Source: Dictyostelium discoideum (taxonomy: Eukaryota). From it: a stretch of DNA of 64,000 bases. Position numbers and translations under genes: made by a program. The stretch spans positions 1,856,001 to 1,920,000 of the forward strand of contig CM000154.2 in NCBI GenBank assembly GCA_000004695.1, given 5' to 3'. The notes beneath the pieces were generated by a model. That model saw only the letters and a list, made by a program, of their open reading frames with translations, was not told the DNA's origin and made no database searches. Positions 22 to 52,946 of the stretch are shown in pieces. Position 1 is the first letter of the stretch. Each line of letters begins with the position of its first letter.

Positions 22-2627
22 TTAAACAAACAAAATAATTAAAATTAAAAATAAAACAAGAGAAAATAATTGGCAAAATTTAAAATTATTAGAGTGATTA
101 TTTTCATCATTTTCGGAATGATTATTATTATTGGTATTGGTTTTATTATTACCATTTGGAATTGGAGTTGTTGATTTTGGATTTACAGAGGGAGATGGAG
201 ATTTAGAAATAAATGGAGACAAAGATGGAGATAAAGATGGAGATAAAGATGGTGATAAAGATGGAGATAAAGATGGTGATAAAGATGCAGACAAAGATGG
301 TGATGGAGAAATTGTTTCAAACGGTGTTTCAGTTTCTGGTGGACTCCATTCAAAAATTGTATCACCAACAGATTGGCCATTTATAGTTACGTTTATGAAT
401 GACTTTGGTTTATCACTTGTAATGGTATCATTTGTTACAATTAATGGTTCTAAAAAACATTCAAGTTTATTAGAATCGAAAACAACTATATCACCACAGT
501 TTCTAGAATCAATTGTAATACTGTTTAATTCATTCTCTGCAAAATTGGTTCCAGTTATTGTAACATTACCACCTTTAATTTGGTCAACTTTTGTAGTGGA
601 TAAAATAGTTGGTGGATTGTATGAAAGGGTTAATGGAGATGGGAGTTGTACATCGTCTACAATTAATATAACTAGATTATTTTTTCCACTACCTTTTGGT
701 GCCATACATTCTAATGTTGTTGGACTGGATATAGAAACAGAGTCACATGACTTTTCACCAACCATTATAGTAATTGTTGATTTACTATCAAAGAAAGAAC
801 CAACAATTGAAACACTACCGCCATCTGTATTTATAGAAGAGATTGATTTGCAAATTGGAAGAATTGAAATTTTGAAACCATTAGAATCACTAGATAAACC
901 ATCAACAACAATAATGGCATTGTTATCAAATTTAGCTGTTTCTGGAAGTGTGAATGATGCTACACCATTTTCAAGTGAATCTGCTTTAATAGCGCCATTG
1001 TTTAAAGTTAATTCCACAAGTGATGCATCAGAACCAAGGTTTCTACCCTTAATCTCTAAAATATTTTCTTTTTGGGTTGGTTCAAGTTCAAATGGTGGTT
1101 GATAACTAAAAGCAATTCTATATGGTTTATGAGTACCAAAAGTTACAACGGCAACCATTTTATTACCAGTACCAGAAGAAAGAGTACATGAAAGTTTTGA
1201 AACATCAATAATTACATCTGTACATTCAATTGGATTGGTTTTACCTGTATTTTCAATTTGAATACTTGGTTTAACACCTGATGGATTCAAATAAAATCCA
1301 GATATTTCAAATGGTCCACCTTCCGTTGGGGCAAGTGTTAATGGTTCAGTTAAAACTGGAGTTGTGGTAAAATCAAGTTTATTTGAAATATCTTTATTAT
1401 TAGAAACAACAAAACTGCCACTGAAAATTTTTGAAGGTAGGGTAAATACCAAAACATTCTGAGCATTATCATCATCAGTTGGACTAATGGTGTTTTCTTG
1501 ATTTTTTTGATCAGTGATAATAATTTTTGAAGTACCCATCGTACCAAGACTTGTTCCTTCAATTGTAAAGTTAGTACCAGTTTGCTTAATATTTAAAATT
1601 TTTGGAATACCATAGGAATATTCTAAAACATTGGAATTGGAAATATTATCAATATTAATTGAAACCTTCAATTTTTTTATTCCACCTTTTGCAGTAGAGT
1701 GTGGTAATTTACAAATAATTTCACTTGAAATTTGGCTAATAATATCACAATGATAAGATCCAATGGTAATAGAGGTTTTTGATGTATCACCTGATGCACC
1801 CTTTAAGCATTTACCAGTTATTGTTACAACACCACCAATCACTGGAACGGAATTTATTGATAAAGGTAAAGGAGTAAACTTTAGTTGAGAAAGAGATGAA
1901 GATAAACCATTCACATCAACTTTAACAGATAAGGATTGGGTTAATTTTGGTTCATAATTAAATACAATTAAATCATTATTAACTGATACAATTGATGAAG
2001 CTGTTAATACTTGACTTCCCAACTCAATCTTTATTAATCTTTTATCAGTGTAAAAATTAGAACCACTTATTTTAAATTGACCATTTGATGATGATTCAAT
2101 TTTATGGATAGACGGGGCAGCAAAATTTAATTTGAAGGTTGAAGTTCCCAATTGAACACTGAATGAACCAGATCCACCCAAGTTTTTAACATTAAATTTA
2201 GTTGCATCTTTTGGAATTGGTGGATCTAAATTTAATTTTTTGGTTTTACCACCAATAATTACATTTAAAGTTTTTACATCATACCCAAATCTCAAAAAAT
2301 TACCAGTTACCAATGATAACCCAGGTTCAGTTGATGGTGTAAATTTCAAATCTCTTGGCGGAGGTATTGGCAAACCAATCATTGGATGCTCAGTTGTTTT
2401 ATCTTTTCCATCCATATATTTCCCATTGAATGTAAGAGTTGAACCAATTAATTTTGTAAAATCTAAATCTTTTGATTTACAAATACAACCATCTTTACCC
2501 TTTCTAGTACATGTAAACAATATTTTTACAGTTGGACAACTCTTATCTGTCAATATAATATTTGTTAAGAATTTATCAACTTTACTTCCAACATATACTA
2601 ATTTCTTTCCTTCAACAGAAACATTAA
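22..2627 (-). CDS. IPT/TIG-repeat cell-surface glycoprotein (Tgr/tiger-like), exon 2 of 2. Ends with a (SPSLSP)n stalk and a hydrophobic C-terminal tail (GPI/TM-like).
   Basis: Long minus ORF with several TIG-like repeats (GxxxTITGxxLxG...SxExxCxLP). Acceptor ...attattag|TT maps at 2628-2629, phase 1. It is a paralogue of the ORF at 3437-5925 (aligned: VSVEGKKLVYVGSKVDKF vs LSVKGKKLIYTGANVDFK). The ORF-track 'M' at 2553 is a TTG. Confidence 0.75.
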
Positions 2628-3436: not shown

Positions 3437-5925
3437 TTAAATTATTTGGATTAGTAATAATAATGAGAAAATTAAAATTAATGAATTAGAAATTTTAGAA
3501 GAACTATTTTCAATGTGTTTATCTATTGGAGATGTTGTTGGTTTTTCAGTTGGTTTTTCAGTTGGTTTTTCAGTTGGTTTTATAGTTGGTGCTAATGTTG
3601 GTTTAGGAGTTTCAGTATTGAGTGCTTCATTATCATATTCAAATACTTCACCATTAGCAGATTGACCATTTACAGTAACATTTACGGCCAATTTCTTATT
3701 TGTTAATGAAGGATCTATTGTTGATTTTGAAATTGAACAAGTAAGTTTGGTTGAATCTATTACAGAAACATCTTCACATGATTTACTTCCAACATTTACT
3801 GTAATCAAAGTATTTTCAAAATTGGTACCATAAATAGTAACTTGACCACCTTCAACTTGTTTTACACTTGTTGATGACATAATGGTTGGTGGACTATAAT
3901 CTAAAAACAATGGTGGTGATAATTTTGATTCAGCATCTTTAACCATGAATGAAACAGCATTTTTAATACCACTTCCTGGTGGAGCAGAGCAAGTAAGTGT
4001 TTGGGTATCTACAATAGTCAAAGAATCACATGAATGATTTCCAACCATAATTTTCAAACCAGTGTCCTTTTTATTAAAGAATGAACCTTTAATTGTCACA
4101 GTTGATCCAGAGGTTTGTGATTGAGTAATTGATTTGACAACTGGTTGAAGCTCGACATCAAGTTGGTCAGAGTCTGAGTTTTTAATACCATCAACTGAAA
4201 TGGTGGCATATGAATCACTCAATAATGTACTTGGCAAATCGAATGAAACAGTACCATTTTCAAGAGAGGAAGCTAACAGTTCGTTTCCGTTCATGTCTAA
4301 CTTTATATATTTTGAATTTGGACCAAGGTTTTTGCCACTAATTTGTAATTTATTATCAGACATTTGTTTTGCGACTAAAGAACTTGGGGATTGGTAGTTA
4401 AAATCTAGTGGAATTGAGTTTTCACCAATAACAATTGTAGATTTAATTGAACCACATCCTGGTGCAAGTTTACAAGTAGCAGATGATGAATCTGGACTAA
4501 TTAAGAAATCTGAACAATCAACACTTTGATTTCTTGCATCCAAAAGGGAAATAGTTGCTTTTGCTTTTGAATCAAGATAACCACCGATGAAATTAATTTC
4601 TTGACCATCTGTTGATGGGAGAGCTTTTAAATTAGAAATAAATGGTGTTGGTGTGACATCAAAATTATTTGAAGTATCTTGACCATCATAGACTGTAACT
4701 GCACTCTTTGATGAGTTTGTTGGTAAGTTAAATGTTAAATAAGATTCCTTTTCATCATCAAAACCTACAACAGAAAGGTCAAATGGGGTTGGAGAGCCAC
4801 CTGTTGCAACACGAATAACTGAATCGGTTTTACCCAAGTTTGAACCGGTAATAGTGAATAAAGATGCTCCTGGTTTTTGGTCAATTTTGGTAATTTGTGG
4901 TATTCCATAAGAGTATAATAATTGATTGGTATTTTTAATACCATCTATAGTAATAACAACTTTTAGATCCTTTGAACCATTCTCTTTTGAAGCAGGTGGT
5001 AATTGACACATTATTTCTGTTGATATTTGAGCACCAACAACAGCACATGTGTATGCACCTACTAAAACAGATGTAACAGATGGACCAGATCCTTTTAAGC
5101 ATTTACCAGAGATAGTGATTAGACCACCAGTTCCTTTAGAAACAGATTTATCAATTGCTTGAGGATATGAAGGGATTGTAACATAATAAGCAGCAGTTTG
5201 GGAATTACCACCGACAGTAATAAGTAACGATGAGTTTGAAGAATATTTTGAATCATAGTCAATTAAAATTTTTGATGTATCACTTGAAGTAATTGAAGCA
5301 CTAAGATCATCCTCACCCAATTTTACACTGATAACCTTTTTATCGATCCAAAAGTTTTGACCACTGATTGAAATTTGATTATTTGTAATTGCCACTGCGG
5401 AAACAACTGGTCTAGAAAAGTTTACCGGAAAACTCATAGAACCAAATGTAACTTTCATTGAACCATAACCACCTGGACTTTTAACCATTATTTTGGTTGC
5501 GTCAGTATTTGATGAAACACCCAATGACACTGGTTTTGAATTGTAAACACCAGGAAGAGTTGTAACATCTTCACCAAATAATAAGAAATCTCCAGTCATA
5601 AGAGCAGCTGTACCAGCCATTGTTGGTGGTTCCCATTTAACCTCAGTTGGTAATGGTAGTGGAATTTGATTGGCTTTAATATCATAGGCAATTACTATAT
5701 TTGGGGTTTTTAAATTTGCTCCCCTTAGAGTTAATTTTCCAGCTAATTTTGTAAAGTCCATATCCATACTCGTACAAACAGGGCTATTGGCAGATGGAAT
5801 TTCACAAGTGAATGTAATTGAGTAATCTGGTAATATTTTTTGGGAAGTTAACAAAATTTCAGTAATTTTGAAATCTACATTGGCACCAGTATATATTAAC
5901 TTTTTTCCTTTAACAGATAAAGTAT
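3437..5925 (-). CDS. IPT/TIG-repeat cell-surface glycoprotein (Tgr/tiger-like paralogue), exon 2 of 2. Has a (PTEK)n stalk and a hydrophobic C-terminal tail.
   Basis: Minus ORF with classic TIG repeats (e.g. GGLITISGKCLKG...YTCAVV...STEIMCQLPP). The open frame extends upstream of the TTG shown as 'M' at 5854, to acceptor aaaaaaag|AT at 5926-5927. Confidence 0.75.
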
Positions 5926-10520: not shown

Positions 10521-11387
10521 ATTCCAATGGAAAATGGTCGTTATGTTATGAATTCAGAAGAAGTTTTGAAAAGAGTCGATGAAAACACAATTGGTGTGAT
10601 TCCAACTCTTGGTGTAACATTTACATTACAATATGAAGATGTTTTTTCTATTAGTAATGCACTTGATAAATTTGAAAAAGAAAGTGGTATTAATATTCCA
10701 ATTCATGTTGATGCAGCAAGTGGTGGATTTGTAGCACCATTTATTCAACAAGAGATTATATGGGATTTTAGATTACCACGTGTTAAATCAATTAATGCAT
10801 CAGGACACAAATTTGGTTTATCACCATTGGGTGTTGGTTGGGTGGTATGGAGAGAAAAGAAAGATCTTCATAAGGATTTAGTATTCAATGTGAATTATTT
10901 GGGTGGTAATATGTCAACATTTTCATTGAATTTCTCACGTCCAGGTGGGCAAATAATAGCGCAATATTATAATTTTTTACGTCATGGTCGTAATGGGTAT
11001 ACATTAATTCAAGATGCTTGTGCACAGCAAGGTATTTTCATCGGCAAAGAGTTAAAGAAAATGGGAATTTTTGATTTAATTTATGATGGTACTGGTGCAC
11101 TCCCAGGTGTTTGTTGGACAATTAGTAAGAATTTACCCTCTGAACCATTATTTAATCTTTATGATTTATCTGAAAAGTTAAGAAGTAGAGGTTGGCAAGT
11201 TGCATCTTATTCTTTACCATCATCAATGAATGATGTAGTTGTATCACGTGTTGTAATTCGTCATGGTTTCTCTAGAGATTTATCTTCATTATTCGTTAAA
11301 GATGTTCAAAATGCAATTGAATACTTCCAAAAACATCCAATTTTAAGAAGTTTAGAAAAAGATGAAGGTGAAAATTTCCATCATTAA
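10521..11387 (+). CDS. gad: Glutamate decarboxylase, exon 2.
   Basis: Acceptor ...aaaaag|ATT CCA ATG... Continues [42 protein letters not shown] (HK is the PLP-lysine motif), collinear with E. coli GadB. Confidence 0.85.
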
Positions 11388-11635
11388 AAATAATATTATT
11401 ATATATTTATTAATAATATAAGAAATAAATATAAATTTATATTATTAAATTAATTTTTTTTTTTTTTATTAATTCTTTTTTTTATTTTTTTTTTTTATTT
11501 TTTTTATTTTTTTACTATTTCAATATGAATTAACTATAATAAAATGAAAATGAAAAATGAAAATAATAATATAAAAATAGTAATTATTATTATTATTTTT
11601 TTTTTTTCCACTATATCTTATTTTTTTAAAAAAAT

Positions 11636-25181: not shown

Positions 25182-25197
25182 TTAAACTAAAACTTAC

Positions 25198-26869
<1,672 letters not shown>

Positions 26870-31041: not shown

Positions 31042-32100
31042 TTAAAATTTATTATTTATTATAATTTTACCATTTGAATTTGAATTTTCAAAACAAGTAT
31101 AAGCATCTTTAATTTGATTTAAATTAAATTGTTTATCAATATTTGGAATTAAAATATTATTTTCATAAAGTTTTGAAATTTGTTTTAAAGTTGAACCAGA
31201 TGGTGAAAAGATTGCATAATCTAAATGAACATTTTTTGAATATTGTTTTTTAATTCTTTCAGAAGAGTTTAATTGATTCATCATACCCATTGGTAAACCA
31301 GATAAAACACCATCTTTATCACTAAATTTAACTAATGGACCATTGAAACCAATTAAATTACCACCATCTTTTAAAGCATCAATACATTTCTTTTCATTTT
31401 CATTTTGATTTTTACCACCATCATAACAATTGAAAATTAAATCAAATTTATTATTATCATTATCATTAATTTTCAAATTATTATAATCTATAGTTTCATT
31501 TACTAGAGTTAATTTTTTTAATTTTTCAAAATGTTTTATATTACAGGTTGTTGAAACTTGATTTACATTTAAATGTTTCTTTAATAATTGTAGGATGAAG
31601 AAACCAACACTACCATTACCACCATTGACTAGGATTTTAGTATTGGTTGTAATCTTTTTATTTGTTGGTAAAACATTGTAAATTGCATTCCATGCTGTTA
31701 GAGATGCAAATGGAATTGATGCAGATTGTTGGTGTGTTAAGTTCTTTGGTTTTAATGATATTTCACTCTCGTCAACTGTAATGTATTCACAATGTGATCC
31801 CATTGAAAATGGTGGTGATGCACTCCAAACTTGATCACCAATTTCGTAATCCCAAACACTGTCACCGATTTCTACGATTTCACCACTACATTCTCTACCT
31901 AAAATAATTGGTAATTTTAATTTCAAATCTACAATACTTGATGCATATCCTTTTCTCATTACATTATCTAATGGATTAATTGATGTTGAATGTATCTTTA
32001 TTAAAACTTGTGATTTAATTGGTTTTGGTACTGGTAAATCAGTTTTATATTCTAATAAATCTAATGATTCACCATATCCATTTAATAAAATACCTTTCAT
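31042..32100 (-). CDS. Zinc-type alcohol dehydrogenase-like / quinone oxidoreductase (MDR superfamily, RTN4IP1-like).
   Basis: A 352 aa ORF with the GroES-like N-terminus and a Rossmann motif (ILVNGGNGSVGFFILQLLK). Confidence 0.6.
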   Translation of the reverse strand: MKGILLNGYGESLDLLEYKTDLPVPKPIKSQVLIKIHSTSINPLDNVMRKGYASSIVDLKLKLPIILGRECSGEIVEIGDSVWDYEIGDQVWSASPPFSMGSHCEYITVDESEISLKPKNLTHQQSASIPFASLTAWNAIYNVLPTNKKITTNTKILVNGGNGSVGFFILQLLKKHLNVNQVSTTCNIKHFEKLKKLTLVNETIDYNNLKINDNDNNKFDLIFNCYDGGKNQNENEKKCIDALKDGGNLIGFNGPLVKFSDKDGVLSGLPMGMMNQLNSSERIKKQYSKNVHLDYAIFSPSGSTLKQISKLYENNILIPNIDKQFNLNQIKDAYTCFENSNSNGKIIINNKF

Positions 32101-32659: not shown

Positions 32660-32713
32660 CATTCATATTCGTTAACGGATAAAACTAATAAATACATATA
32701 CATACAATATACA

Positions 32714-32735
32714 ATGAGTAATAATATAAATTATA

Positions 32736-32768
<33 letters not shown>

Positions 32769-33369
32769 TTGATATACTGCCACCACTACCACCAACAGAA
32801 ACATTATTACCACCATATCCACACCCACTTTCACCTCCTCCACCAACACCACCATCAACAGAAACATTATTACCACCATATCCACACACACATTCACTTT
32901 CATCTCCACCACCTCCACCTCCACCACCACCACCACCACCACCACCAAGACATAGTTATATAAATTATCATGGATCATTTTCAAGGGGAGGTGCATTTAA
33001 AACCAAAGGATTTGTTGATCCTTCATTTTATAGTAGTAGTGTTTTAGTACCAATTAATAGGAATAGTCAATTCTCATTACATATTACATCAACTGAAACA
33101 GTTGTACAAAGAAAGAAATCATATACAGTATATGTAATTAGAGTTAAAAGTGATCAACATCAATGGGAAGTCGTTAGAAGATATAAACATTTTAGAGTAT
33201 TTTCAATTCAAATTAATAATGAGGTTTTTAATTCAAATTCATCCTCATCAACACCTTCTTCCACTTGTCCACCTTCTTCATCAACATCTTCACTTGGTAG
33301 TAGTAATAATAATATTAATAATACTAATACTACCAATAATAATCCCAATAATAATAATGCGAATATATT

Positions 33370-33434
<65 letters not shown>

Positions 33435-34033
33435 TAAATTTATCAACACAATTATCATTAACAAATTCAATACAATCATTTGAATTTCCATCAAAGAAAT
33501 TAATTGGTAATATGAATCCAAACTTTATAAAGAATCGTAAAGAACAATTGGAAAAGTTTTTACAATTGATAGCATCATCACAAGTTGCAAAGTTGTCTAG
33601 GAATTTAAAGGTATTCTTAGACCCAAACTTTTCACCATCATTACGTACACTCGTTAACCCATCTAAAGAAGGTTTCTTATACTTGTTAAAACCACAGAGT
33701 AAATATAGTTCATTATTAAATTCAAAGAAACAATGGATTAAAGTTTATTGTATTGCAACCAATTCGAATTTATTCTATTGGAAAAATAGAGAACAACCAT
33801 ATGCTGAAGCTAGAGGTGTAATTCAACTATGTCATTGTTCAACTAGAATTATGACAAAACAAGATAAAAAATGTATACAATTAAATGAAAATAGTAATAA
33901 TACTTCAAACAGTGGTGATAATTCAAAATATTTATTAACAAATTCAAAAGGTCATAAATCATTTAGTCATAAAATTAATCCAAATGATATTTATAATAAT
34001 ATAAATAATGTAAATAATAACAATAATAGCGCA

Positions 34034-34070
<37 letters not shown>

Positions 34071-34290
34071 TTGATAGTAATGAAGTATATTATTTATCAG
34101 CAGATTCTGATGTAATTTTAGAACAATGGGTTGAAACTATTGAAAAAGAAACTTTTAGATACCAAAAAGATATACAACAACAACAATCAGTATTAAATAA
34201 TAATACTCCACCACAAGCATTACAAGAACAATATCAACAACAAAAATATGATTCTAGTATTTTAAATATTGAAAATGATTATATAAATGC

Positions 34291-34373
<83 letters not shown>

Positions 34374-36397
34374 CTAATAAATTAAATGTTAGAAAATCAA
34401 TTAAAAAACTATATAAAGATGATGATATAATTGAAGAGATTGAAGAAGAATTTAAAAATAATGATAGTGAAACAAGTAAAGAATATAAATTATTAGAATC
34501 TGTACTTACAAATTCAAAATGTAAAGATTTATTAATTGATCCAAATTATGTAAATGATGATTCTTTTTCTTCCTCTTCAACTTGTTCAACTCCTTCTGCT
34601 TCAATTTTAAATTTAACAAAATCTTTAAATTTAAATACAAATTTACCAACTACTAGACCAAATACAAATACTACTACTACTACTACTACTGCAACTAGTA
34701 CGACTACAACGAATAAAAAGAAAATTAATAATGATGAAATTAGTTCAATTGAATTATTACATTCTGAAGAGATGACATATTTTGCAGAAAGGATTATACA
34801 TATGCATCAAAATACTGGTACTATTGGTAGTATAACCATTACAAATTATAGATTTTATTTTTCAGCGACGGTTGGTGATAAGATTATATCAATACCATTG
34901 ACAACCATTTCAAAGATATTTAAATGTGTTGGTTTCACATTGGATAAAGTTAAATATTATGCATTTGAATTGACTTGTAAAGATTTCAATCGAGCTCGAT
35001 TCATGCATTTACCAGGCTCATCACAACAAAAGGCGAATTCAAGATTGTTTGAGATATTGGAATCACTGATTTTCAAACAGAAACAACAGTATCATCAATT
35101 GTTTTGTTTCAAGAATGAGGAGATATTGGGCGGTTACGATGGTTGGAACATTTATCAAGCGTTGAAAGAATTTGCAAGACAGTCTATCCCTAACGAGGAT
35201 TGGAGGGTGTCGCATTACAATAACGATTACCAATTCTCGCCAACCTATCCAAACCTATTGATTGTGCCAAAGAGAATCACTGATCAGGAATTAATAAATA
35301 CCACTTCGTTTAGATCAAAAGGTAGAATACCAACATTGGTTTGGAAAAGTCCAAATTCAAATTCTGTAATAACAAGATGTAGTCAACCTGTAATTGGTGT
35401 AACAAAGAAACGTTCCCTAGATGATGAAAAATTAATCGAGTCAATACTTTTAGCGAATCCACAATCTGAAAAAGTTTACATTATGGATGCTAGACCTCAA
35501 CTAAATGCCGTTGCAAATCAAATGATGGGTTTAGGTTATGAAGATACAAATAATCAATCTTATAATAATTGTATTTTAAAATTTTTAAATATTGAAAATA
35601 TTCATAAAATGAGACATTCACAAAAGAAATTATTTAAATCAATTATGTCTGATTCTGTAATTTATGGTGAAAATAATAATAATAATATTAATAATAATAA
35701 TAGTAATAATGGTAGTGGTGGTAATGGTAATAATAATAATTTAAATTCAATTAATATTTTAAATTTAGAAGAATCAACTAGAGATTGGTTAGAACATATA
35801 AAGTCAATTTTAATTGGTACATTAGATATTGTTGATATTATTCAATTTTATAAATCATCAGTTGTAGTTCATTGTAGTGATGGTTGGGATAGAACAAGTC
35901 AATTATGTTCATTGGCTCAACTATTATTGGATCCTTATTATAGAACAGTGATTGGATTTCAAGTTTTAATTGAAAAGGAATGGTGTTCATTTGGTCATAA
36001 ATTTGAATCTAGAATTGGTCATACTGGTAAAAATGAAAAAAAGAGTGACGAATTGTCACCGATATTTTTACAATTTATCGATTGTGTTTGGCAAATTATG
36101 CAACAGAATCCAACGAGTTTTCAATTCAATTCAAAGTATTTATTAGAGATTATTCATCATTTATATAGTTGTCGTTTTGGTACTTTTCTATTCGATTGCC
36201 AAGAAAAACGTGTCTCTGCTAATCTTATGTCAAAAACTACAAGTATTTGGTCCTATATCAATCAAAATCATTCTCCATATTTCAATAAAAATTATATTTA
36301 TAATTCAAATGAACCACCAATAAGAATTGATACCTCTGAACTATCTTTATGGTCTGAATATTATTTACATTGGAGAAATTTTTATTTATCGAATTAA
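32714..36397 (+). CDS. Myotubularin-family PI3P phosphatase with N-terminal PX and PH domains (PX-PH-GRAM-PTP).
   Basis: Active site VVHCSDGWDRTSQ (CX5R). A GRAM segment lies upstream. The PX motif is (..RRYKHFRVF...FPSKKLIGN..FIKNRKEQLEKFLQ). The PH-like segment is (EGFLYLLKP..KQWIKVYCI..LFYWK). Long poly-Ser and poly-Asn runs. Confidence 0.8.
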
Positions 36398-36915: not shown

Positions 36916-37557
36916 ATGCATGTGTTAAATTTATTATTTTTAATAGTAATAATTAATATTTTAATTTTTTCTGTACAATCATATACCTTGAAAAAGTATG
37001 ATTATGGTCAGTTTTTAGTTATCGCCAGTGGGCCAGTAATTAATAAAAAATTTAATGTTGCAAATCACCAGGTATCAAACTTTTTACTAACAAAAGATGA
37101 AAATGATTCTAATTCAGTGCAGCTTCGTATCACTTCTGATGGAGCACCAGAATTTTTAATCTTTTACAGTACTTTTAGTGATGAAATTGCAAGTGAAAAA
37201 AATTCAAACAAAACAAATATTACCACTCCATTGGAAGGCTCAATGTGTATCTCTAGTGTCTATTCTTTTTCAATCAAAATGAACAATTACCTCTTGGGTG
37301 GTGATTACATTATCTCAATTCTAGGTAACTCTGATGTTTCAAAATGCTACAAGCATGTCCCAGTAAACCAAGCTAACCAAGAACCTGAAAGTATTGTATT
37401 ACTTTCAACATCTTCTGAACAACTTGTTTTACAATCTGATGGTGAAACAGTCGTTCAAAAAAATATAGAGAATCAAAAATCTACTGCTTCAACACCACTA
37501 GTCAATGGAGTTTTAATTTTTTCAACAGTTCTTTTATTTTTACAATTAATAATCTAA
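36916..37557 (+). CDS. Small secreted/GPI-anchored-type protein (N-terminal signal peptide and C-terminal hydrophobic tail).
   Basis: MHVLNLLFLIVIINILIFSVQS... leader, and the terminal ..LIFSTVLLFLQLII*. Confidence 0.5.
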   Translation: MHVLNLLFLIVIINILIFSVQSYTLKKYDYGQFLVIASGPVINKKFNVANHQVSNFLLTKDENDSNSVQLRITSDGAPEFLIFYSTFSDEIASEKNSNKTNITTPLEGSMCISSVYSFSIKMNNYLLGGDYIISILGNSDVSKCYKHVPVNQANQEPESIVLLSTSSEQLVLQSDGETVVQKNIENQKSTASTPLVNGVLIFSTVLLFLQLII

Positions 37558-51464: not shown

Positions 51465-51509
<45 letters not shown>

Positions 51510-52187
51510 CAACCATCAAATTTTTCATTATCTTCACCAACAACATCACCAACTAATTCACCATCACAAACCCCATCACCTTGTACAACACCAAATATTT
51601 TTCCAACATCAGTCCCACCATTTTCAATTGCGATTTCAGTAACACCTCCATCTACTCGCCCTGCACCAGTGATTCCAAAAGAAAATACTACACCACCAAC
51701 AGAACCACAATGTCTTACTGTTGAATCAGTAAGAGTTTATAGGTACACTCAATCTCAATATCCAATTTCAACATTAGAATTTGAATTGAAACTTGCAAAA
51801 CTCTCTAAACGTTTATGTGTTGCAGTGGCAGCCTCAACTAGAGATGGAGTTATTTATGATGGTAGAACTGTAGAGTTTTTCGCTCACAATAATGGAAAAC
51901 ATAATGCAACTCCAACCTATAAGGGTTGTAAAACTGCAATTTCAAATGCTAGAACAAAATCACCATACTCTTCACCTTCTTCCTCTTCTACTTCCACTTC
52001 CTCCAACTCCACCTCCTCCTCTTCTCCAAATCCATCAAATTCAATTGTACCTGTTGGTAATCTTATCTCTGTGAAATCTGAAAAGAAAAAACCTAGAACT
52101 AGTTCAAATAGTCCAACTACAAGTCCAAATATTAAAAAATCTCAATTAACTAATAAAAATAATAACAATAATAACTGTAATTCTCAC

Positions 52188-52251
<64 letters not shown>

Positions 52252-52274
52252 GTAATAACAACAATAATAATAAT

Positions 52275-52341
<67 letters not shown>

Positions 52342-52401
52342 GTAATAGTAGTAATAACAACAATAATAACAATAATAGTAATAGTAATAATAGTAATAGT
52401 A

Positions 52402-52472
<71 letters not shown>

Positions 52473-52524
52473 TTTCAAAACAATTTTAATCCAAGTAATA
52501 ACTTGATTTCAAACAATTATAATC

Positions 52525-52567
<43 letters not shown>

Positions 52568-52946
52568 AAACCAAGGTAATAATCAAATGAACCATTCATC
52601 TTCTCCAATACCTTTACCTTCAATACCACCCCACATGTCATCAGATTACCAAGAAAACAATCAAATATGGCAAAATAATTATTCTTCCTCTTCTTATATT
52701 AATGAAATACAATCCCATTGGATTCAAGAACAACAAACTAACTTACTTCCACACCCTATGTATATGTCAAATCAATCACATCATCAATTACCTTTTAATA
52801 ATAATAATAATAATAATAACAATATTCATCAACAAACTCATCAGTTACAAAACTTGCACCCACCAATGAATCATCAACAACAAATTCCTTTTCACCAATA
52901 TACTAGTGGGCAACATCATATGAATAATCAAGAAAGTGATTCCTAA
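49500..52946 (+). CDS. N/Q/S/T-rich putative nuclear protein with two conserved globular islands (about 50520-50860 and about 51640-51960).
   Basis: An 1148 aa ORF. Long (AAT)n/(AAC)n tracts are separated by non-repetitive segments (..GPCGIGCVGSGNVFAVVNKIPQLFTP..GVRIDLYHKPRGSKGTWMPILKGDHIRV.. and ..CLTVESVRVYRYTQSQYPISTLEFELKLAKLSKRLCVAVAASTRDGVIYDGRTVEFFAHNNG..). Confidence 0.6.

What the first reader, a model, noticed from the sequence alone, without database searches (positions are those of the whole stretch)
32714..36397. Myotubularin phosphatase fused to N-terminal PX and PH domains
The 1227 aa ORF has a catalytically intact myotubularin domain (CSDGWDRT) and a GRAM domain. Uniquely, it also has an N-terminal PX-like domain (..VRRYKHFRVF..FPSKKLIGN..FIKNRKEQLEKFLQ..) followed by a PH-like domain. 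Metazoan MTMRs pair the phosphatase with PH-GRAM, FYVE or DENN domains but not with PX. A PI3P-binding PX on a PI3P phosphatase would couple substrate targeting and hydrolysis in one chain. Long (CAT)n poly-Ser and (AAT)n poly-Asn runs separate the domains.
Basis: partly seen in the sequence, partly recalled or inferred. Interest (0 to 1): 0.55.

Follow-up and report, generated by a model that had tools for sequence, protein, structure and literature searches.

The report
Known Dictyostelium PX–PH myotubularin phosphatase gene
This is the already annotated Dictyostelium discoideum gene DDB_G0288731, a lipid phosphatase of the myotubularin family with two extra membrane-binding domains (PX and PH) at its front end; the domain calls hold, but the combination has been published before and its function has never been tested.

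Summary
The 1227-aa ORF at 32714-36397 (+) exists and every domain call holds. Pfam gives PX (E=2e-12, split by an 85-aa Ser/Asn insert), PH (E=6e-7) and Myotub-related (E=4e-134). A PH-GRAM region aligns to MTMR2, and the P-loop HCSDGWDR is intact. An AlphaFold model of aa 86-490 matches solved PX (SGK3) and PH (AKT, GRP1) folds. All four canonical PI3P-contact residues of PX domains (R156, Y157, K261, R275) are present and invariant across the six-sequence dictyostelid alignment. The His/Tyr of the secondary lipid site is absent, which predicts a PI3P-only PX.

The protein is not new. It is identical to D. discoideum DDB_G0288731 / XP_001134519 (chr5:1888714-1892397, single exon). That sequence is in the dataset of Kerk & Moorhead 2010, who list PX among myotubularin accessory domains. 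The Fig. S6A legend of Li et al. 2022 also lists PX among the domains of the nine Dictyostelium myotubularins.

The architecture is conserved in the dictyostelids sampled and occurs in Archamoebae (Mastigella, Mastigamoeba). None of the 120 best catalytic-domain hits carries a PX domain, and nearly all of those are metazoan.

Most likely function, inferred only: an MTM1/MTMR2-like PI3P/PI(3,5)P2 3-phosphatase recruited to PI3P-positive endosomal membranes, analogous to FYVE-bearing MTMR3/4.

Verdict: observation correct, architecture already known, modest interest.

The parts
32714..36397 (+). Complete single-exon CDS of D. discoideum DDB_G0288731 (1227 aa plus stop)
   Evidence: ORF listed. 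The sequence is identical at the four segments searched (both termini and both PX motifs) to DDB0231579 / XP_001134519, chr5:1888714-1892397. That span has the same length as the ORF.
32714..32968 (+). N-terminal low-complexity region, aa 1-85: poly-Asn, a twice-repeated TETLLPPYPH motif and Pro14. It is not conserved beyond D. discoideum and D. citrinum.
   Evidence: Translation. (CCA)14 at 32906-32947. Orthologue sequences.
32969..33055 (+). Conserved pre-PX motif, aa 86-114 (..SRGG.F..K.FV.PS.YSSSV.VPI). It is invariant in dictyostelids and its role is unknown.
   Evidence: Invariant columns of alignment A1. The AlphaFold model has low confidence here.
33056..33226 (+). PX domain, N-terminal half, aa 115-171: strands beta1-beta3 and helix alpha1. 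Contains R155-R156-Y157.
   Evidence: Matches to the SGK3 PX domain over aa 120-161. Aligned to SGK3 R49-R50-Y51 through the orthologue. Strands and helix in the model.
33227..33481 (+). 85-aa Ser/Asn/Thr low-complexity insert inside the PX domain, between alpha1 and the PPK loop. Includes Ser22 encoded by (TCA)n. Lineage-specific.
   Evidence: Absent from D. purpureum, Tieghemostelium, Heterostelium and Acytostelium, and shorter in D. citrinum. Perfect (ATC)21.7 at 33370-33434. pLDDT below 50 in the model.
33482..33649 (+). PX domain, C-terminal half, aa 257-312: PPK loop (F-P259-S-K261-K) and helices alpha2/alpha3 with R275. Ends in the conserved FLDPNFSP linker.
   Evidence: Best Pfam PX stretch is aa 253-304. 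Aligned to SGK3 P73-A-K75 and R90. Invariant columns.
33662..34162 (+). PH domain, aa 317-483, with a 64-aa Asn-rich insert (aa 393-456, nt 33890-34081) before the last strand and the C-terminal helix.
   Evidence: Pfam PH E=5.8e-7. The model has seven strands plus a C-terminal helix. Foldseek matches to AKT, GRP1 and GRK2 PH domains.
34163..34753 (+). Low-complexity, presumably disordered linker, aa 484-680. Includes Asn30 encoded by (AAT)30.
   Evidence: Composition. (TAA)30 at 34291-34380. No family match.
34754..35104 (+). Myotubularin-type PH-GRAM domain, aa 681-797.
   Evidence: Aligns to the PH-GRAM part of MTMR2 structures 1lw3 and 1zsq. Pfam GRAM is 19.8 bits here (below cutoff) and 27.9 bits in the D. 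purpureum orthologue.
35126..36376 (+). Myotubularin phosphatase domain: Pfam aa 805-1166, homology to MTMR2 continuing to aa 1221. Carries an Asn/Gly-rich insert at aa 980-1016 (nt 35651-35761). The protein ends 6 residues later, so there is no C-terminal coiled coil.
   Evidence: Pfam E=3.9e-134. MTMR2 E=7e-134, aligned up to residue 587 of the chain.
35870..35893 (+). Catalytic P-loop H1053-C1054-S-D-G-W-D-R1060 (the HCSDGWDR signature of active myotubularins).
   Evidence: Position. The signature of active subunits is stated in PMC2927912. Aligned to the MTMR2 P-loop.

Best explanation
The ORF is the annotated single-exon D. discoideum gene DDB_G0288731, one of the nine predicted active myotubularins of this amoeba.

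Shown here:
- It encodes PX - PH - disordered linker - PH-GRAM - myotubularin phosphatase.
- The HCSDGWDR catalytic loop is intact.
- The catalytic half is closest to the animal MTM1/MTMR2 type.
- There is no C-terminal coiled coil.
- The PX domain has the canonical fold and all four side chains that define stereospecific PI3P binding. It lacks the alpha1 His/Tyr of the secondary site that binds di- and tri-phosphoinositides.
- The architecture is conserved across the dictyostelids sampled and is present in Archamoebae.

Inferred:
- The enzyme removes the 3-phosphate from PI3P and PI(3,5)P2, like other active myotubularins, including the paralogue Mtm6.
- The PX domain, helped by the adjacent PH domain and the PH-GRAM, recruits it to PI3P-positive endosomal, macropinosomal or phagosomal membranes.
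- The enzyme therefore reads its own substrate, and its recruitment should fall as PI3P is consumed. This makes it the amoebozoan functional counterpart of FYVE-bearing MTMR3/MTMR4.
For: Identity: the four segments searched, including both termini, match DDB0231579 / XP_001134519, and the genomic span has the same length as the ORF.

Domains: Pfam PX, PH and Myotub-related all exceed their cutoffs. MTMR2, MTMR1, MTMR8 and MTMR6 structures match at E=7e-134 to 3e-94, including the PH-GRAM.

PX domain:
- SGK3 PX 5e-11 and KIF16B PX 2e-8. RRY, P-x-K and R align to SGK3 R49-R50-Y51, K75 and R90.
- SGK3 R50A and R90A do not bind PtdIns3P (PMC4209782).
- The four residues required for PI3P binding are defined in PMC6449406. 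All four are invariant in the six-sequence dictyostelid alignment.
- The position 7 residues after the Tyr is Tyr in SGK3 and His in KIF16B. Here it is Ser or Ala.

Fold: the AlphaFold model has pLDDT 70-84 in its cores. Foldseek target TM-scores are 0.71-0.77 to the SGK3/CISK PX domain and about 0.68-0.77 to AKT and GRP1 PH domains.

Conservation:
- Orthologues with PX plus Myotub (PH also detected in most) occur in D. citrinum, D. purpureum, Tieghemostelium, Heterostelium and Acytostelium.
- Mastigella has PX-PH-Myotub and Mastigamoeba has PX-PH-SH3-Myotub.
- The dictyostelid clade has 100% bootstrap support.

Precedent for activity: immunoprecipitated Dictyostelium Mtm6 hydrolyses PI(3,5)P2 and PI3P (PMC8855053).
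Against: No lipid-binding, localisation or activity data for this protein were found. No paper in the searched library cites the gene id.

Li et al. 2022 GFP-tagged all nine Mtm proteins but reported localisation only for Mtm6. Endosomal targeting of this one is therefore unconfirmed.

PX specificity cannot be read from sequence with certainty. Chandra et al. note exceptions to their rules. The Dictyostelium SnxA PX domain binds PI(3,5)P2.

The D. discoideum PX domain carries an 85-aa insert next to the lipid-binding loop.

The lipid preference of the PH domain could not be assigned.
Confidence: 0.7

Rival explanations
1. The PX-PH cassette targets the phosphatase to a lipid other than PI3P, for example PI(3,5)P2, PI(3,4)P2 or PIP3. 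The enzyme would then be placed by one signal and would erase another. This is how the paralogue Mtm6 is proposed to work: it is recruited by PIP3 and degrades PI(3,5)P2.
For: Mtm6 binds PIP3 and PI(3,4)P2 yet hydrolyses PI(3,5)P2 and PI3P (PMC8855053). Many PX domains bind lipids other than PI3P, and sequence rules have exceptions (PMC6449406). A Dictyostelium PX domain (SnxA) is a PI(3,5)P2 sensor. The specificity of the PH domain is unassigned.
Against: All four canonical PI3P-contact residues are present and invariant. The secondary-site His/Tyr and the flanking basic residues that mediate PIP2 and PIP3 binding are absent, with Ser164 followed by IQINNEV. The nearest solved PX domains, SGK3 and KIF16B, both bind PI3P.
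Confidence: 0.18
2. The PX-PH cassette acts mainly as a regulatory or protein-binding module rather than as a membrane anchor. It could autoinhibit or allosterically activate the phosphatase, or dock onto partner proteins.
For: In SGK3, PI3P binding by the PX domain controls activation of the enzyme as well as its location (PMC4209782). The protein lacks the coiled coil that animal myotubularins use to pair with each other (PMC2927912). Some other interaction surface may therefore be needed. A strictly conserved 29-aa motif of unknown role precedes the PX domain.
Against: Nothing in the data points to a specific partner. Conservation of exactly the lipid-contact residues argues that lipid binding itself is under selection. 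A long disordered linker of about 200 aa separates the cassette from the catalytic half, which fits a tethered anchor better than a rigid regulatory interface.
Confidence: 0.1
3. The architecture is an artefact: either two adjacent genes read through as one ORF, or a chance PX-like match in low-complexity sequence.
For: Dictyostelium coding sequence is extremely AT-rich and full of simple repeats. The PX match is split into two pieces.
Against: The frame is uninterrupted for 1227 codons. The same order of domains occurs in at least seven dictyostelid sequences and in transcriptome-derived Archamoebae sequences. The PX flanks are nearly invariant while the insert varies. The insert-free orthologue gives a single contiguous PX hit.
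Confidence: 0.02

Closest known systems
Human MTM1 / MTMR1 / MTMR2 (active myotubularins, PH-GRAM plus phosphatase)
   Same: They have the closest catalytic half: 46-48% identity over 467 trimmed columns and E=7e-134 to the MTMR2 structures. The PH-GRAM plus phosphatase core is the same and the HCSDGWDR loop is identical.
   Different: This protein has a roughly 680-aa N-terminal extension carrying the PX-PH cassette. It ends right after the phosphatase domain, so it lacks the C-terminal coiled coil and PDZ-binding tail of the animal proteins. It also carries Asn-rich inserts.
Human MTMR3 / MTMR4 (FYVE-containing active myotubularins)
   Same: The logic is the same: an active PI 3-phosphatase carrying, in the same chain, a module of a class that reads PI3P. 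This rests on my own knowledge of the family. FYVE is listed among myotubularin accessory domains in PMC2927912.
   Different: The reader domain is a PX at the N-terminus, not a FYVE at the C-terminus. No FYVE match was found here. The fusion is independent and restricted to a different lineage. The catalytic domain is nearer to MTM1/MTMR2.
PX domains of SGK3/CISK and KIF16B (SNX23)
   Same: They are the nearest solved PX domains by sequence (5e-11 and 2e-8), and SGK3 is also among the nearest by fold. In both, a PX domain places an enzyme or a motor on PI3P endosomes. The four canonical residues are shared.
   Different: SGK3 and KIF16B also have the alpha1 Tyr/His secondary site (group IV in PMC6449406). 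This PX has Ser there, and in D. discoideum it has an 85-aa insert before the PPK loop.
Dictyostelium Mtm6 (PMC8855053)
   Same: It is a paralogue in the same genome and the only Dictyostelium myotubularin studied experimentally. It is active on PI(3,5)P2 and PI3P, and it is placed on membranes by a phosphoinositide.
   Different: It is a different gene: the Mtm6 primers encode MNQQQIVND... and ...SIINDLKDI. Mtm6 is recruited by PIP3 to the leading edge. No PX-dependent mechanism has been described for it.
Amoebozoan PX-PH cassette proteins (e.g. PX-PH-RasGEF of Balamuthia and Pelomyxa); also PLD1/2, which have an N-terminal PX-PH before a lipid-modifying catalytic domain
   Same: They have the same PX-then-PH tandem, with a related linker (FLDPN..P....P.KEG). 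They are the nearest non-myotubularin hits among 1.84 billion representatives. The PLD1/2 comparison is from my own knowledge.
   Different: The effector domain is a RasGEF or a phospholipase D, not a myotubularin phosphatase.

Membership tests
Myotubularin family, catalytically active subgroup | Myotubularin-like phosphatase domain (Pfam PF06602) | tested here: met
   E=3.9e-134, 447 bits against a cutoff of 25, covering 14-351 of 352 profile positions. MTMR2 structure E=7e-134.
Myotubularin family, catalytically active subgroup | Intact catalytic loop HCSDGWDR (His, Cys and Arg all present) | tested here: met
   H1053-C1054-S-D-G-W-D-R1060. The signature is defined in PMC2927912.
Myotubularin family, catalytically active subgroup | PH-GRAM domain immediately N-terminal to the phosphatase domain | tested here: met
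   aa 681-797 align to the PH-GRAM of MTMR2 structures 1lw3 and 1zsq. Pfam GRAM is sub-threshold here (19.8 against 23.6 bits) but passes in the D. purpureum orthologue at 27.9 bits.
Myotubularin family, catalytically active subgroup | 3-phosphatase activity on PI3P and PI(3,5)P2 | not testable with these tools
   This needs an enzyme assay. The only Dictyostelium precedent is Mtm6.
Animal-type MTM1/MTMR2 subgroup | C-terminal coiled coil (and PDZ-binding motif) used for pairing between myotubularins | tested here: not met
   The protein ends at aa 1227, 6 residues after the last position aligned to MTMR2 (residue 587 of the 657-residue 1lw3 chain). No coiled-coil predictor was run. The conclusion follows from there being no sequence left.
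MTMR3/MTMR4 subgroup | C-terminal FYVE domain | tested here: not met
   No FYVE match at E<=10 in Pfam.
PX domain | Profile match above the curated threshold, and the beta-beta-beta plus helices fold | tested here: met
   Pfam PX 47.8 bits against 21.6 here, and 56 bits in the insert-free D. purpureum orthologue. Model secondary structure. Foldseek target TM-score 0.71-0.77 to the SGK3/CISK PX domain.
Canonical PI3P-binding PX domains (groups II/IV of Chandra et al. 2019) | Four side chains: the Arg-Tyr pair at the beta3/alpha1 junction, the Lys of the PPK loop, and the Arg in alpha2 | tested here: met
   R156-Y157, K261 and R275 align to SGK3 R50-Y51, K75 and R90 through the orthologue. They are invariant in alignment A1. 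The definition is in PMC6449406.
PX domains with a secondary PIP2/PIP3 site (groups III/IV) | His or Tyr in helix alpha1 (7 residues after the canonical Tyr/Phe) with nearby basic residues | tested here: not met
   The position is Ser164, and Ser or Ala in the orthologues. SGK3 has Tyr and KIF16B has His at the aligned position. The +7 register comes from SNX1 Y194 and from my own knowledge of the SNX1 and p47phox sequences.
Canonical PI3P-binding PX domains | Measured PI3P binding and endosomal localisation | not testable with these tools
   This needs liposome or ITC assays and live imaging.
PH domain | Profile match above threshold, and a seven-strand sandwich capped by a C-terminal helix | tested here: met
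   Pfam PH 30.4 bits against 25.1. The model has seven strands plus a helix. Foldseek matches to AKT, GRP1 and GRK2 PH domains.
3-phosphoinositide-binding PH domains (AKT/GRP1 type) | Basic signature in beta1-loop-beta2, with the key Arg three residues after the conserved Trp | tested here: inconclusive
   Read by eye against AKT and GRP1 from memory, the sequence is W341-I-K-V, or W-K-K-V in other species, so a Val would sit at the Arg position. No reliable sequence alignment to a solved lipid-bound PH domain was obtained. The beta1-beta2 loop is basic in several orthologues.

The most novel reading that the evidence does not exclude
The PX-PH tandem with its conserved FLDPN..P..KEG linker is an Amoebozoa-wide portable targeting cassette that has been attached to different effectors, including a myotubularin and RasGEFs. 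On the myotubularin it would make a self-extinguishing PI3P timer: the enzyme docks on PI3P-rich macropinosomes or phagosomes through a PI3P-only PX domain and detaches as it consumes its own anchor. This would set the length of the PI3P phase of endosome maturation in professional phagocytes.
Probability: 0.25. Interest if true: 0.4.

Novelty: already known. Interest (0 to 1): 0.2.

Why it matters
The architecture is a neat natural example of a lipid phosphatase that carries a reader domain for its own substrate. Dictyostelium is a tractable model for macropinocytosis and phagosome maturation, where PI3P and PI(3,5)P2 turnover are central.

The gene and its PX domain are already in the databases and in two publications, so the sequence observation adds no new knowledge. 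What remains open is experimental: which lipid the PX-PH cassette binds, where the protein sits in the cell, and what its loss does to PI3P dynamics.

This analysis adds the following:
- A residue-level prediction that the PX domain is PI3P-only.
- The location of the species-specific insert inside the PX domain.
- The occurrence of the same architecture in Archamoebae.
- The observation that the cassette is shared with amoebozoan RasGEFs.

Tried and rejected
- Exact-sequence look-up of the protein in the 15-billion-protein collection found nothing. Identity was established instead from the FASTA supplement of PMC2927912.
- The first full-length homologue search was swamped by low-complexity words and returned only 10 hits. 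I repeated it with the catalytic half alone.
- I checked whether this is the characterised Mtm6. It is not, because the primer-encoded termini differ.
- I checked whether the PX-PX lipid sensor of Li et al. 2022 came from this gene. It did not: its primers encode MNRNNEIYI, and no fetched protein contains that string.
- A literature search for the gene id gave 0 papers.
- A search of the 2010 dataset for other common RR[YF]x[DEQ]F PX motifs gave no hits. This is weak evidence that this protein is the PX-bearing entry in that survey.
- Biopython clade support on the NJ tree gave nonsensical values because of arbitrary rooting. I discarded it and recomputed support as bipartitions.
- A sequence comparison of the PH domain with solved PH domains gave only marginal hits (best E=0.046). 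The PH lipid specificity is left unassigned.
- The tRNA scan of the window found nothing.
- The 103-aa antisense ORF at 32685-32996 is just the complement of the Pro-rich, low-complexity N-terminus. I rejected it as a gene.
- Neighbouring genes are functionally unrelated. As expected for a eukaryote, genomic context was not informative.
Full report
**1. Observation**

The window has about 22% GC with long homopolymer and trinucleotide runs, which is typical of a dictyostelid genome. The ORF at 32714-36397 (+) encodes 1227 aa.

Pfam reports three families above their curated cutoffs:
- Myotub-related: E=3.9e-134, aa 805-1166.
- PX: E=2.1e-12, in two stretches, the best at aa 253-304.
- PH: E=5.8e-7, aa 317-479.

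Against PDB sequences, the C-terminal half matches MTMR2 (E=7e-134), MTMR1, MTMR8 and MTMR6. The MTMR2 alignment starts in the PH-GRAM region (aa 681) and runs to aa 1221. The P-loop is H1053-CSDGWDR-1060, which is the signature of active myotubularins (PMC2927912).

The GRAM call is the softest. The isolated segment scores 19.8 bits against a cutoff of 23.6, but the D. purpureum orthologue passes at 27.9 bits.

(ATC)21.7 at 33370-33434 reads as TCA, giving Ser22. (TAA)30 at 34291-34380 reads as AAT, giving Asn30.

**2. Identity**

The four segments searched (both termini and both PX motifs) match DDB0231579 / DDB_G0288731 / XP_001134519, 'chromosome 5 position 1888714 to 1892397', in Additional file 5 of Kerk & Moorhead 2010. 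That interval is 3684 bp, the same as the ORF. The gene is therefore annotated as a single exon, and the window corresponds to chr5:1856001-1920000.

The 2010 survey states that Dictyostelium has nine active myotubularins and lists PX among the accessory membrane-localisation domains found in myotubularin homologues. Li et al. 2022 named the nine proteins Mtm1-9 and GFP-tagged all of them. Their Fig. S6A legend lists PX among the domains.

Only Mtm6 was characterised, and it is a different gene: its primers encode MNQQQIVND.... No paper in the searched library cites DDB_G0288731 by id.

**3. The PX domain**

In D. discoideum the PX domain is interrupted by an 85-aa Ser/Asn/Thr insert (aa 172-256). 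D. citrinum has a shorter insert. D. purpureum, Tieghemostelium, Heterostelium, Acytostelium and a EukProt species have none.

The insert-free D. purpureum PX domain matches solved PX domains of SGK3 (5e-11), KIF16B (2e-8), SNX14, Vps5-like, nischarin and others.

Chandra et al. 2019 define four strictly required side chains for canonical PtdIns3P binding:
- the Arg-Tyr pair at the beta3/alpha1 junction,
- the Lys of the PPK loop,
- an Arg in alpha2.

Through the alignment, these correspond to SGK3 R50-Y51, K75 and R90. In D. discoideum they are R156-Y157, K261 and R275. SGK3 R50A and R90A do not bind PtdIns3P (PMC4209782). All four positions are invariant in the six-sequence dictyostelid alignment.

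The secondary site that gives binding to di- and tri-phosphoinositides centres on a His or Tyr in alpha1. That position is Tyr in SGK3 and His in KIF16B in the alignment. Here it is Ser164, and Ser or Ala in the orthologues, with no basic cluster after it. By those published rules this is a PI3P-only ('group II') PX domain. That is an inference from sequence, not a measurement.

**4. Fold**

An AlphaFold2 model of aa 86-490, built on a shallow six-sequence alignment, has a mean pLDDT of 53 because of the inserts. The two cores reach 70-84. The secondary structure is three strands plus helices, followed by seven strands plus a C-terminal helix.

Foldseek against the PDB returns SGK3/CISK PX (target TM-score 0.71-0.77), plus SNX25, SNX3 and SNX7 PX domains. 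It also returns AKT, GRP1, GRK2 and Slm1 PH domains at about 0.67-0.77.

The lipid preference of the PH domain could not be assigned. Sequence matches to solved PH domains are marginal. By eye, the key Arg of AKT/GRP1-type domains appears to be replaced by Val.

**5. Distribution**

A profile of the PX-PH module was searched against 1.84 billion representative proteins. Only five hits scored below 1e-30, and all five are sequences of the dictyostelid orthologue family or close relatives. The next hit was at 1e-19.

Among the best 150 hits, only two others also contain a myotubularin domain with CSDGWDR:
- Mastigella eilhardi: PX-PH-Myotub.
- Mastigamoeba balamuthi: PX-PH-SH3-Myotub, in a gene model that lacks part of the PX domain.

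The 120 best hits to the catalytic half are almost all metazoan MTM1/MTMR2, and none carries PX.

I built a neighbour-joining tree of the PH-GRAM plus phosphatase region (467 columns, 500 bootstraps scored as bipartitions):
- Dictyostelid PX-PH myotubularins form a clade with 100% support.
- The two Archamoebae proteins form a clade with 100% support.
- The two groups join with only 53% support.

A shared inter-domain linker, FLDPN(F/I)SP(S/A)L.T..P.KEG(F/Y)L, supports common descent of the cassette. A single ancient fusion is plausible but not demonstrated.

The nearest other bearers of the cassette are PX-PH-RasGEF and related proteins. Every one that carries a species name is from Amoebozoa: Balamuthia, Pelomyxa, Stenamoeba, Acytostelium, Cavostelium and Dracoamoeba.

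**6. Mechanism**

Shown: an intact active-type myotubularin core of the MTM1/MTMR2 kind (46-48% identity). It has no room for a C-terminal coiled coil. It is preceded by a disordered linker of about 200 aa and by a PX-PH cassette whose PX domain has a complete canonical PI3P pocket.

Inferred: the enzyme dephosphorylates PI3P and PI(3,5)P2, as Dictyostelium Mtm6 does in vitro. It is tethered by the PX domain to PI3P-positive endocytic membranes, with the PH domain and PH-GRAM adding avidity or coincidence detection. Because anchor and substrate would be the same lipid, recruitment should be self-limiting. This is the same logic as the FYVE domains of MTMR3/MTMR4 (from my own knowledge of that family).

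Rivals:
- Targeting by a different lipid, as with Mtm6.
- A mainly regulatory or protein-binding role for the cassette.
- An annotation artefact, which the comparative data exclude.

**7. Comparison and novelty**

The protein is a genuine member of the active myotubularin family. It carries genuine PX and PH domains. It is not a member of the FYVE (MTMR3/4) subgroup or of the coiled-coil-bearing animal subgroups.

The domain combination is absent from the metazoan MTM1/MTMR2 sequences that dominate the best catalytic-domain hits. It is restricted, as far as this search could see, to Amoebozoa.

The gene is annotated, and the PX-myotubularin combination has been tabulated or drawn in 2010 and 2022. 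The finding is therefore a correct re-discovery, not something new. The biology of the protein is untouched, which gives it modest experimental interest.

**8. Verdict**

- Observation: confirmed.
- Interpretation: supported at the domain level.
- Functional coupling: plausible but untested.
- Novelty: already known.
- Interest: about 0.2.

Noticed in passing
window 32969-33055 (aa 86-114): A 29-aa motif directly before PX strand beta1 (..SRGG.F..K.FV.PS.YSSSV.VPI) is almost invariant across the dictyostelid orthologues. It matches no domain and is modelled with low confidence. Its role is unknown.
   Followed up: partly
P0133, P0144, P0147 and other hits: The nearest non-myotubularin relatives of the PX-PH module are PX-PH-RasGEF and related proteins. 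Every one with a species name is from Amoebozoa (Balamuthia, Pelomyxa, Stenamoeba, Acytostelium, Cavostelium, Dracoamoeba). They share part of the FLDPN...P.K linker, which suggests a portable PX-PH cassette in this supergroup.
   Followed up: partly
P0148 (Mastigamoeba balamuthi), aa 316-368: The Archamoebae relative has an SH3 domain between the PH domain and the phosphatase half. The D. discoideum protein instead has a Pro14 run and a repeated TETLLPPYPH motif at its N-terminus (window 32714-32968). Whether these are related interaction features is unknown.
   Followed up: no
window 22-2553 (-) and 3437-5854 (-): Two adjacent ORFs of 843 and 805 aa carry IPT/TIG domains. One also matches the TgrO1-like Ig domain. 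They look like tandem members of the Dictyostelium Tgr cell-adhesion/allorecognition-type family.
   Followed up: no
window 36916-37557 (+): A 213-aa ORF just downstream has a hydrophobic N-terminus and a hydrophobic C-terminal tail, which is signal-peptide and GPI-anchor-like. It has no Pfam match.
   Followed up: no
window 49500-52946 (+) and 25187-26869 (-): Two long ORFs of 1148 aa and 560 aa have no Pfam family at E<=0.001.
   Followed up: no
window 10527-19087, 31042-32100 and 39573-61882: The other neighbours are ordinary, unrelated genes or exons: pyridoxal-dependent decarboxylase, choline-transporter-like, Sec1 family, PrpD/MmgE, zinc-type alcohol dehydrogenase (divergent from the myotubularin gene), acyl-CoA oxidase, DMAP1-like SANT protein and ABC1 kinase.
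   Followed up: partly
P0004 and P0011 (same EukProt species); P0012 (Acipenser 'UNVERIFIED_CONTAM'): Some database relatives look like faulty records. P0004 lacks part of the PH domain. P0011 is a 505-aa catalytic-half-only model that clusters inside the dictyostelid PX-PH clade. P0012 carries a contamination flag in its source name, yet it groups with vertebrate MTM1.
   Followed up: partly
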